Positions 62,299-63,068 of a stretch of 64,000 nt of DNA are shown here, in pieces. The notes under the pieces are model-generated. The model saw nothing but the letters and a program-made list of their open reading frames with translations, did not search any database and had not been told where the DNA came from. The position numbers and the translations under genes were made by a program. The stretch lies in assembly GCF_056746865.1 (NCBI RefSeq), contig NZ_CM163382.1; one strand, 5' to 3'. Position 1 is the stretch's first letter, and every line of letters starts with the position of its first letter.

Positions 62299-63068
62299 GG
62301 TGATGCTGCCAACTTACTGATTTAGTGTATGATGGTGTTTTTGAGGTGCTCCAGTGGCTTCTGTTTCTATCAGCTGTCCCTCCTGTTCAGCTACTGACGG
62401 GGTGGTGCGTAACGGCAAAAGCACCGCCGGACATCAGCGCTATCTCTGCTCTCACTGCCGTAAAACATGGCAACTGCAGTTCACTTACACCGCTTCTCAA
62501 CTCGGTACGCACCAGAAAATCATTGATATGGCCATGAATGGCGTTGGATGCCGGGCAACAGCCCGCATTATGGGCGTTGGCCTCAACACGATTTTACGTC
62601 ACTTAAAAAACTCAGGCCGCAGTCGGTAACCTCGCGCATACAGCCGGGCAGTGACGTCATCGTCTGCGCGGAAATGGACGAACAGTGGGGCTATGTCGGG
62701 GCTAAATCGCGCCAGTTCGCCCGGATGTTGGGACTTGAACCGAAGAACACGGCGGTGCGGAGTCCGGAGAGTAACGGCATAGCAGAGAGCTTCGTGAAAA
62801 CGATAAAGCGTGATTACATCAGTATCATGCCCAAACCAGACGGGTTAATGGCAGCAAAGAACCTTGCAGAGGCGTTCGAGCATTATAACGAATGGCATCC
62901 GCATAGTGCACTGGGTTATCGCTCGCCACGGGAATATCTACGGCAGCGGGCCAGTAATGGGTTAAGTGATAACAGGTGTCTGGAAATATAGGGGCAAATC
63001 CACTGCATGACAAAGTCATCGGGCATTATCTGAACATAAAACACTATCAATAAGTTGGAGTCATTACC
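62299..63068 (+). mobile_element. IS1::IS2 chimeric remnant
   Basis: IS1 left end and insA (62354-62629) and insB 5' part, joined near 62713 to the last 290 bp or so of IS2 (ending GGGGCAAATCCA at 63002), followed by the last 66 bp of IS1 (63003-63068). Confidence 0.75.
62354..62629 (+). CDS. insA: IS1 InsA
   Basis: 91 aa [23 protein letters not shown]... Confidence 0.8.

What the first reader, a model, noticed from the sequence alone, without database searches (positions are those of the whole stretch)
62299..63068. IS1::IS2 chimera encoding an InsB-InsD fusion ORF
ORF 62548-62991 reads IS1 InsB for 56 aa and then IS2 InsD C-terminus in frame, and is followed by the last 66 bp of IS1. This is best explained by IS2 inserting near the IS1 right end, followed by a deletion joining IS1 insB to IS2 insD at a short RQ-coding microhomology.
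Basis: seen in the sequence. Interest (0 to 1): 0.35.

Follow-up and report, generated by a model that had tools for sequence, protein, structure and literature searches.

The report
Dead IS1–IS2 hybrid insertion-sequence relic
This is a 770-bp wreck of two common E. coli jumping genes, an IS2 that landed inside an IS1 and then lost 1.3 kb by a small deletion; it sits at a seam of a genomic island in about 5% of sequenced E. coli and is ordinary.

Summary
Window 62299-62715 is IS1 positions 1-417, with one mismatch to K-12 IS1A. 62716-63002 is IS2 positions 1045-1331 and ends at the intact IS2 right terminus. 63003-63068 is IS1 positions 703-768.

The inner IS1/IS2 joint lies at a 6-bp repeat, CGCCAG. 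It encodes Arg-Gln in the same frame in insB and insD, so ORF 62548-62991 is an in-frame InsB(1-56)–InsD(C-terminal 91 aa) fusion.

No un-deleted ancestor was found.

The element is not novel. The junction occurs in 261 of 5,426 complete E. coli genomes, always chromosomal in the cases examined. RefSeq annotates it as insA plus an integrase-core pseudogene. The exact 147-aa product is already in public databases.

It has no 9-bp target duplication. It joins two island modules: a TPR gene lacking 5 codons, and a BRO-N gene stub followed by the raffinose operon next to a tRNA-Phe integrase.

Both end junctions also occur on full-length IS1 copies, and alleles show IS1 gene-conversion patches. 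The relic therefore acts as portable homology, not as a transposon. Interest is low.

The parts
62299..62715 (+). IS1 left arm, IS1 positions 1-417. It includes the 23-bp left inverted repeat (62299-62321).
   Evidence: One mismatch in 417 bp to K-12 IS1A (position 204, T for C) and 30 mismatches to the window's own IS1.
62354..62629 (+). insA ORF, 91 codons, full length, with a P50L substitution in this allele.
   Evidence: ORF list. The translation matches IS1A InsA except P50L. Pfam finds Zn_ribbon_InsA and HTH_Tnp_IS1. RefSeq annotates it as WP_023181049.1 'IS1 family transposase'.
62605..62611 (+). IS1 A6C (AAAAAAC) programmed -1 frameshift motif, retained.
   Evidence: Motif located. Applying the -1 shift gives a 212-aa InsA–InsB'(N-terminal part)–InsD'(C-terminal part) product. 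The same procedure on IS1A gives the normal 232-aa InsAB'.
62548..62991 (+). Fusion ORF, 147 aa: InsB residues 1-56 joined in frame to the last 91 residues of IS2 InsD.
   Evidence: The exact sequence is in public databases as BEC93175.1 'hypothetical protein'. A T101 allele is on 592 contigs.
62710..62715 (+). CGCCAG microhomology at the internal IS1/IS2 deletion joint (IS1 412-417 = IS2 1039-1044).
   Evidence: Alignment of the chimera to both parents. 6-mer sharing is rare: 317 of 934,362 endpoint pairs.
62716..63002 (+). IS2 positions 1045-1331: the 3' end of insD plus the intact right terminal inverted repeat.
   Evidence: Seven mismatches in 287 bp to the window IS2 and to an ETEC1701 IS2. 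The EC332 allele differs by 1 of 287 from a live IS2 in strain Ec-2977.
63003..63068 (+). IS1 right arm, IS1 positions 703-768. It includes the right inverted repeat (63046-63068).
   Evidence: 100% identical to IS1A and to the window IS1.
61270..62298 (-). Left flank: tetratricopeptide-repeat (TPR) protein gene cut 15 bp (5 codons) after its start by the IS1 left end.
   Evidence: The intact 347-codon gene in strain 2013C-4991 (L009) and in CM2 (L013) aligns up to 62298 and then continues with TAATCTGTCGTTCAT.
63069..63119 (+). Right flank: the last 16 codons plus stop of a BRO-N domain gene, cut by the IS1 right end.
   Evidence: The uninterrupted gene in strain HD12480 (L008) aligns from 63065 or 63069 onward. 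Its C-terminus ...DEAIAIMTESGKIKTN* is encoded here.
63569..64000 (-). 3' part of the raffinose-operon porin gene, which runs off the window. It is the start of the raf module that always accompanies the chimera.
   Evidence: ORF. Annotated 'carbohydrate porin' WP_001037798.1 in every related locus.

Best explanation
The element is a non-functional relic made in three steps.

1. An IS1A-type IS1 sat in the 3' end of a BRO-N gene beside the raffinose (raf) operon of a tRNA-Phe-associated genomic island.
2. An IS2 transposed into that IS1 between positions 702 and 703, in the same orientation.
3. A spontaneous, transposase-independent deletion of 1,334 bp between two CGCCAG repeats (IS1 412-417 and IS2 1039-1044) removed IS1 418-707 and IS2 1-1044. 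Slipped mispairing or microhomology-mediated joining would do this.

This left 770 bp: IS1(1-417)::IS2(1045-1331)::IS1(703-768). The repeat is the Arg-Gln codon pair in phase in both genes, so an in-frame InsB-InsD ORF resulted automatically. No selection needs to be invoked.

The product cannot be a transposase. It keeps 24 of 131 positions of the IS1 catalytic domain and only the C-terminal third of the IS2 integrase core.

The relic still carries the IS1 ends, the left-end region where IS1's own promoter lies (its activity was not tested) and an intact insA. Since its formation it has served mainly as a patch of IS1 homology. Recombination with other IS1 copies has swapped the DNA on its left side, including the joint to the TPR gene seen in this window, and has converted patches of its left arm.

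Shown: the anatomy, the junctions, the distribution, the flank variants and the allelic patches. Inferred: the order of events, a single IS1 parent, and the recombination mechanism.
For: Anatomy and junctions. The IS2 terminus is intact at the IS1-703 joint, and the internal joint lies on a 6-bp repeat that is rare by chance.

Single origin and fixation:
- The identical internal junction is in 261 of 5,426 complete genomes.
- Both window flanks are present in 210.
- The right junction plus flank is in 255, of which roughly 9 or fewer carry a full IS1 instead of the chimera, estimated from rank position in an evenly sampled hit list.
- No plasmid in PLSDB holds the chimera contiguously.

Not a simple insertion:
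- The flanking 9-mers differ (TTCAAAGCG versus GACGAAGCG).
- The left flank continues as an intact TPR gene next to an integrase in strains 2013C-4991 and CM2.
- The right flank continues as an intact BRO-N gene in HD12480.

Recombination after formation:
- The same chimera has a different left flank in EC332 and strain 64.1. That left junction is found in 48 genomes, an unknown share of which carry a full IS1A rather than the chimera.
- That same left junction is carried by a 100% IS1A in W2-5.
- The same right junction is carried by a full, divergent IS1 in DSM 103246.
- Left-arm alleles carry patches that match other IS1 isoforms.
Against: - No genome with the un-deleted IS1::IS2 at this site was found. 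One search returned only artefactual two-piece joins.
- The IS2 5-bp target duplication cannot be checked because one copy was deleted.
- The two IS1 arms could in principle come from two different IS1 copies, with a larger deletion between them.
- No full IS1 was found at the TPR junction, so how that particular joint arose is unresolved. It could be recombination with a lost IS1, or an IS1-mediated adjacent deletion driven by transposase supplied in trans.
- One draft-assembly allele (L014) differs on both sides right up to 3 bp from the joint. A simple conversion from separate IS1 and IS2 donors does not easily explain this. No complete genome has that allele.
Confidence: 0.85

Rival explanations
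1. A two-IS1 origin. The left arm (1-417) and the right arm (703-768, carrying the IS2) come from two separate IS1 copies in direct orientation. The CGCCAG deletion, or an earlier IS1-IS1 recombination, removed everything between them, which would be far more than 1.3 kb.
For: There is no 9-bp target duplication, and the two flanks belong to modules that occur apart in other genomes. IS1 junctions at this locus demonstrably change partners.
Against: Both arms are IS1A-type and collinear. The flank mismatch is explained equally well by rearrangements after the chimera formed, and such rearrangements are shown to have happened: the same chimera carries two different left flanks. This reading needs more events.
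Confidence: 0.1
2. The 770-bp element is a non-autonomous, MITE-like IS1 derivative. IS1 transposase from other copies mobilises it, and the variable left flanks are products of trans-driven one-ended events such as adjacent deletion or inversion.
For: Both 23-bp IS1 inverted repeats are intact. Its length, 770 bp, is close to the 768 bp of IS1. At least two different left flanks begin exactly at the IS1 end. IS1-mediated adjacent deletions are classical (established knowledge).
Against: The right flank is constant in about 246 of 261 carriers (an estimate from an evenly sampled list). No copy was seen at an unrelated locus with a 9-bp duplication, and none was seen on 72,556 plasmids. The alternative left junction is shared with a full IS1A, which points to homologous exchange and not to new transposition joints.
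Confidence: 0.05
3. The InsB-InsD fusion, or the frameshifted InsA-InsB'-InsD' product, is a retained domesticated gene, for example a trans-acting inhibitor of IS1 or IS2 transposition.
For: The ORF is open and in frame in all alleles examined. insA, the A6C motif and the IS1 left-end region (where IS1's promoter lies) are retained. InsA is a known repressor of IS1 (established knowledge).
Against: The in-frame fusion follows automatically from the in-phase RQ repeat. The insB ATG has no independent translation in native IS1 (established knowledge). Alleles carry non-synonymous changes (M/T101, P50L, and N-terminal variants). The catalytic domains are fragments. RefSeq treats the IS2 part as a pseudogene.
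Confidence: 0.03

Closest known systems
IS1 (IS1A isoform, IS1 family)
   Same: Both 23-bp terminal inverted repeats, the left-end region, a full insA and the A6C frameshift site are present. Positions 1-417 and 703-768 are 99.8% and 100% identical to K-12 IS1A.
   Different: Positions 418-702 are missing, which is most of insB' including most of the DDE domain. There is no transposase and no 9-bp target duplication.
IS2 (IS3 family)
   Same: The last 287 bp, including the intact right terminus and the C-terminal 91 codons of insD (the rve_3 part of the integrase core), are 97.6-99.7% identical to live IS2 copies.
   Different: The left inverted repeat, insC and the first two thirds of insD are absent. 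It cannot transpose.
Nested or interrupted IS remnants at module boundaries of tRNA-linked genomic islands in E. coli
   Same: One IS is inserted in another and then truncated by a deletion. The relic sits at the seam between island modules and is used as recombination homology. This is the same general pattern as many IS 'scars' in pathogenicity islands (general knowledge).
   Different: Nothing in kind differs. I found no paper describing this particular joint, but it is annotated in RefSeq genomes.

Membership tests
IS1 family insertion sequence (functional copy) | 23-bp terminal inverted repeats at both ends | tested here: met
   62299-62321 and 63046-63068 are identical to the IS1A ends.
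IS1 family insertion sequence (functional copy) | insA plus insB' giving the InsAB' DDE transposase by -1 frameshift | tested here: not met
   insA and the A6C motif are present. However, insB' stops being IS1 after codon 56, and DDE_Tnp_IS1 matches only 24 of 131 profile positions.
IS1 family insertion sequence (functional copy) | 9-bp (8-9 bp) direct target duplication | tested here: not met
   TTCAAAGCG on the left versus GACGAAGCG on the right. The flanks derive from different genes.
IS2 / IS3 family insertion sequence (functional copy) | Both terminal inverted repeats | tested here: not met
   Only the right terminus is present, and IS2 positions 1-1044 are absent.
IS2 / IS3 family insertion sequence (functional copy) | orfA/orfB (insC/insD) with a complete DD(35)E integrase core | tested here: not met
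   Only the last 91 codons of insD are present, and only rve_3 is detected.
IS2 / IS3 family insertion sequence (functional copy) | 5-bp target duplication (here expected CTGCA, IS1 703-707) | not testable with these tools
   The left copy would lie inside the deleted segment. No un-deleted ancestor was found.
Non-autonomous (MITE-like) IS1 derivative | Several copies at unrelated sites, each with its own target duplication | tested here: not met
   Where it was examined, the chimera sits at one locus type with a near-constant right flank. It is absent from plasmids. The variant left junction is shared with a full IS1A. About 15 carriers without the window's right flank were not examined individually.
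Microhomology-mediated deletion product | Joint internal to both parents, at a short direct repeat present in both | tested here: met
   CGCCAG is at IS1 412-417 and IS2 1039-1044. The sequences diverge on both sides of it. Such sharing is rare by chance.

The most novel reading that the evidence does not exclude
The relic is not inert. It keeps both IS1 ends, the left-end region and insA. It could therefore be a trans-mobilisable or transposase-recruiting IS1 derivative. Alternatively it could be a constitutive source of InsA, or of an InsA-InsB'-InsD' DNA-binding protein without catalytic activity, that damps IS1 activity in the roughly 5% of E. coli that carry it. The exact-end flank changes could partly reflect transposase acting in trans.
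Probability: 0.07. Interest if true: 0.3.

Novelty: already known. Interest (0 to 1): 0.08.

Why it matters
It matters little beyond annotation hygiene.

- The 147-aa ORF appears in public databases as 'IS1 family transposase', 'integrase core domain-containing protein' or 'hypothetical protein'. It should be read as a pseudogene fusion, not as a new transposase.
- The joint is a convenient single-origin marker for tracing the raf-carrying tRNA-Phe island module across E. coli lineages.
- It is a clean small example of a dead IS that still mediates module shuffling and receives gene-conversion patches from live copies.

Tried and rejected
- **Un-deleted ancestor.** I searched with a synthetic IS1(608-707)+IS2(1-100) joint. 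All 105 'full-coverage' hits listed at the top were two separate pieces 320-720 bp apart, not a contiguous joint.
- **Empty site.** I searched with the left flank joined to the right flank. No contiguous match was found, and the flanks occur together only with the 770-bp element between them.
- **Plasmid origin.** No PLSDB plasmid holds the chimera. The top hits were adjacent IS2 and IS1 copies joined by the tool.
- **Full IS1 at the TPR junction.** None was found.
- **An idea that the IS2 part was an old, diverged relic.** It is 2.4% from two IS2 copies, with mostly synonymous differences. I dropped the idea when a live IS2 subtype differing by only 1 of 287 bp was found.
- **An idea that the 41-bp IS2 left-end remnant beside rafR is the missing half of this IS2.** Rejected, because the remnant is also present in HD12480, which has no chimera and an intact BRO-N gene. 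It also carries 3 mismatches in 41 bp.
- **Transposase-made internal joint.** Rejected, because neither endpoint is an IS end.
- **Literature.** A search on IS1, IS2, raffinose and pheV found no description of this joint.

Full report
**1. The observation**

The region was read directly and compared with the rest of the window. Three adjoining matches account for all 770 bp.
- 62299-62715 aligns with the IS1 copy at 34205-34972 (417 bp, 92.8%).
- 62699-63002 aligns with the IS2 copy at 31923-33253 (96.1%).
- 63003-63068 aligns with the last 66 bp of that IS1 (100%).

Base-level alignment shows that the chimera follows IS1 up to ...AAATCGCGCCAG (62715) and follows IS2 from CGCCAG|TTCGCC onward. 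The two parents share only CGCCAG (62710-62715) at the joint. The IS2 segment ends in the true IS2 right terminus...GGGGCAAATCCA, at 63002.

ORF 62548-62991 is 147 aa: InsB residues 1-56, then the last 91 residues of InsD. Pfam sees a 24-position stub of DDE_Tnp_IS1 and a full rve_3 match. Every coordinate in the finding is right.

**2. Which parents**

Against a K-12-type IS1A (L004), the left arm has a single mismatch, position 204, which gives InsA P50L. The right arm has none.

The 92.8% figure arises because the window's own 'reference' IS1 is a mosaic. All 29 of its differences from IS1A lie in its first 371 bp.

The IS2 part differs at 7 of 287 positions from the window IS2, and at 7 from an ETEC1701 IS2. 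A slightly different allele of the chimera (strain EC332) differs by only 1 of 287 from a live IS2 in strain Ec-2977. Both parents are therefore ordinary, extant IS subtypes, and the relic is not strongly decayed.

**3. How it formed**

The IS2-terminus/IS1-703 joint is what IS2 transposition into IS1 produces. The other joint is internal to both elements, so it cannot be transposase-made. It lies on a 6-bp direct repeat.

Rebuilding the ancestor gives IS1 1-707 + IS2 1-1331 + IS1 703-768 = 2,104 bp. The deletion is then 1,334 bp (for the construct; arithmetic).

Only 317 of 934,362 IS1 x IS2 endpoint pairs share a 6-mer. The repeat at the joint is therefore not a chance feature, and it points to slipped mispairing or microhomology-mediated joining.

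CGC-CAG is read as Arg-Gln in phase in both insB and insD. The in-frame fusion is an automatic consequence of that and needs no selection.

The un-deleted ancestor was not found. The order of events and the single-IS1 origin remain inferences.

**4. What it can and cannot do**

insA (62354-62629) is intact and the A6C frameshift motif (62605-62611) is retained. A -1 shift would give a 212-aa InsA-InsB'-InsD' protein with the IS1 zinc-ribbon and HTH domains but no complete catalytic core. The same procedure on IS1A yields the normal 232-aa transposase, which serves as a control.

A promoter-like site lies in the IS1 left end at 62306-62333. That is a consensus match only.

The element therefore cannot move itself. 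Expression of InsA is plausible but was not tested.

**5. Distribution**

| Feature searched | Result |
|---|---|
| Internal junction | 261 of 5,426 complete E. coli genomes |
| Both window flanks around the element | 210 genomes |
| Right joint plus right flank | 255 genomes; by rank in an evenly sampled list, roughly 9 or fewer of these carry a full IS1 instead of the chimera |
| Contiguous chimera on a plasmid | none of 72,556 plasmids |

RefSeq annotates the locus as 'IS1 family transposase' (insA) plus an 'integrase core domain-containing protein' pseudogene. The exact 147-aa sequence is in public databases as BEC93175.1. A T101 allele is on 592 contigs under several transposase names.

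**6. Context**

The element has no 9-bp duplication: TTCAAAGCG on the left against GACGAAGCG on the right.

The left flank is a TPR-protein gene cut 5 codons after its start. The gene is intact and lies next to an island integrase in strain 2013C-4991 at pheV and in CM2 at selC. Window 46674-62298 is 99.9% identical to the CM2 selC island, and identity stops exactly at 62298.

The right flank is the last 16 codons of a BRO-N gene, followed by a raffinose-type operon. In related genomes this operon comprises a porin, a GH32 hydrolase, an MFS transporter, an alpha-galactosidase and a LacI-type regulator. It abuts an integrase that is usually followed by tRNA-Phe. In EC332 the integrase is flanked by an IS3-family element instead. 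HD12480 has the BRO-N gene intact with no IS.

The chimera is thus the seam between two island modules.

**7. Life after death**

- The same chimera has a different left flank, an HTH gene and a malic-enzyme/dcuC cluster, in EC332 and strain 64.1. The break lies exactly at the IS1 end.
- That left junction occurs in 48 genomes, an unknown share of which carry a full IS1A rather than the chimera. In strain W2-5 it is attached to a full, 100% IS1A.
- The right junction is attached to a full but divergent IS1 (43 differences from IS1A) in DSM 103246.
- Chimera alleles in complete genomes carry short left-arm patches that match other IS1 isoforms.

Shared junctions on different IS1 'bodies', together with mosaic patches, are the signature of homologous recombination and gene conversion among IS1 copies. 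They are not the signature of new transposition.

No full IS1 was found at the TPR junction, so how that particular joint arose is open. It could be recombination with a now-lost IS1, or an IS1-type adjacent deletion.

One draft assembly (L014) has an allele that differs on both sides to within 3 bp of the joint. No complete genome has it. It may be a consensus artefact, and I leave it unexplained.

**8. Verdict**

The feature is real, and the description and interpretation are correct. Biologically it is ordinary: a nested-IS scar already present and annotated in hundreds of public genomes. Interest is low. The only mildly useful points are its value as a single-origin marker of the raf island module, and the warning that the 147-aa 'transposase' in databases is a pseudogene fusion.

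Noticed in passing
window 34205-34972: The 'intact' IS1 used as a reference is itself a mosaic. All 29 differences from K-12 IS1A lie in its first 371 bp, and positions 372-768 are identical to IS1A. Its InsA and 232-aa InsAB' frames are open.
   Followed up: partly
window 63217-63240: A perfect 24-bp palindrome, GCAAGTCCCGAC/GTCGGGACTTGC, lies in the non-coding stretch between the BRO-N stub and the raf porin gene. It is conserved in all related loci. Its function is unknown.
   Followed up: no
window 41705-43015 and 45364-46675: Two copies of a ~1.3-kb IS3-family (IS1203-like) element bracket a 2.35-kb segment (43015-45363). In strain CM2 that segment lies elsewhere in the island, with a single copy of the IS. 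This looks like an IS-mediated translocation or a composite-like structure.
   Followed up: no
window 56576-57749 and 59721-60894: Two stretches of about 1.17 kb cross-match at 91.6% to each other's counterparts in strain CM2. These are phosphoethanolamine-transferase gene paralogues in the same island, one of which is a pseudogene in CM2.
   Followed up: no
window 46674-62298 versus L013 (strain CM2): The whole left side of the seam is 99.9% identical to an island at tRNA-Sec (selC) in another strain. The right side belongs to a tRNA-Phe island module. The window is therefore a hybrid of modules that integrate at different tRNA genes elsewhere.
   Followed up: partly
L006 29086-29126 (outside the window, beside rafR); also L001, L010, L011: A 41-bp remnant of the IS2 left end, with 3 mismatches, lies between the raf repressor gene and the island integrase. 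It is present even where the chimera is absent, so it is an independent and older IS2 scar.
   Followed up: yes
L014 3752-4521 (draft assembly GCA_029455375.1): This chimera allele differs from the window's at 15 positions (204-650), 14 of them clustered at 262-650 across the joint. Its IS2 part matches the ETEC1701 IS2 subtype at all 7 positions that distinguish it from the window allele, and its IS1 part matches a different isoform. No complete genome has this allele. It is either a real double conversion or an assembly artefact.
   Followed up: partly
L001 8526-12205 and L006 16526-20205: In many carriers the TPR gene next to the chimera is additionally split by an IS21-family element (ISSso4). 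The window's copy (61270-62298) is not split.
   Followed up: no
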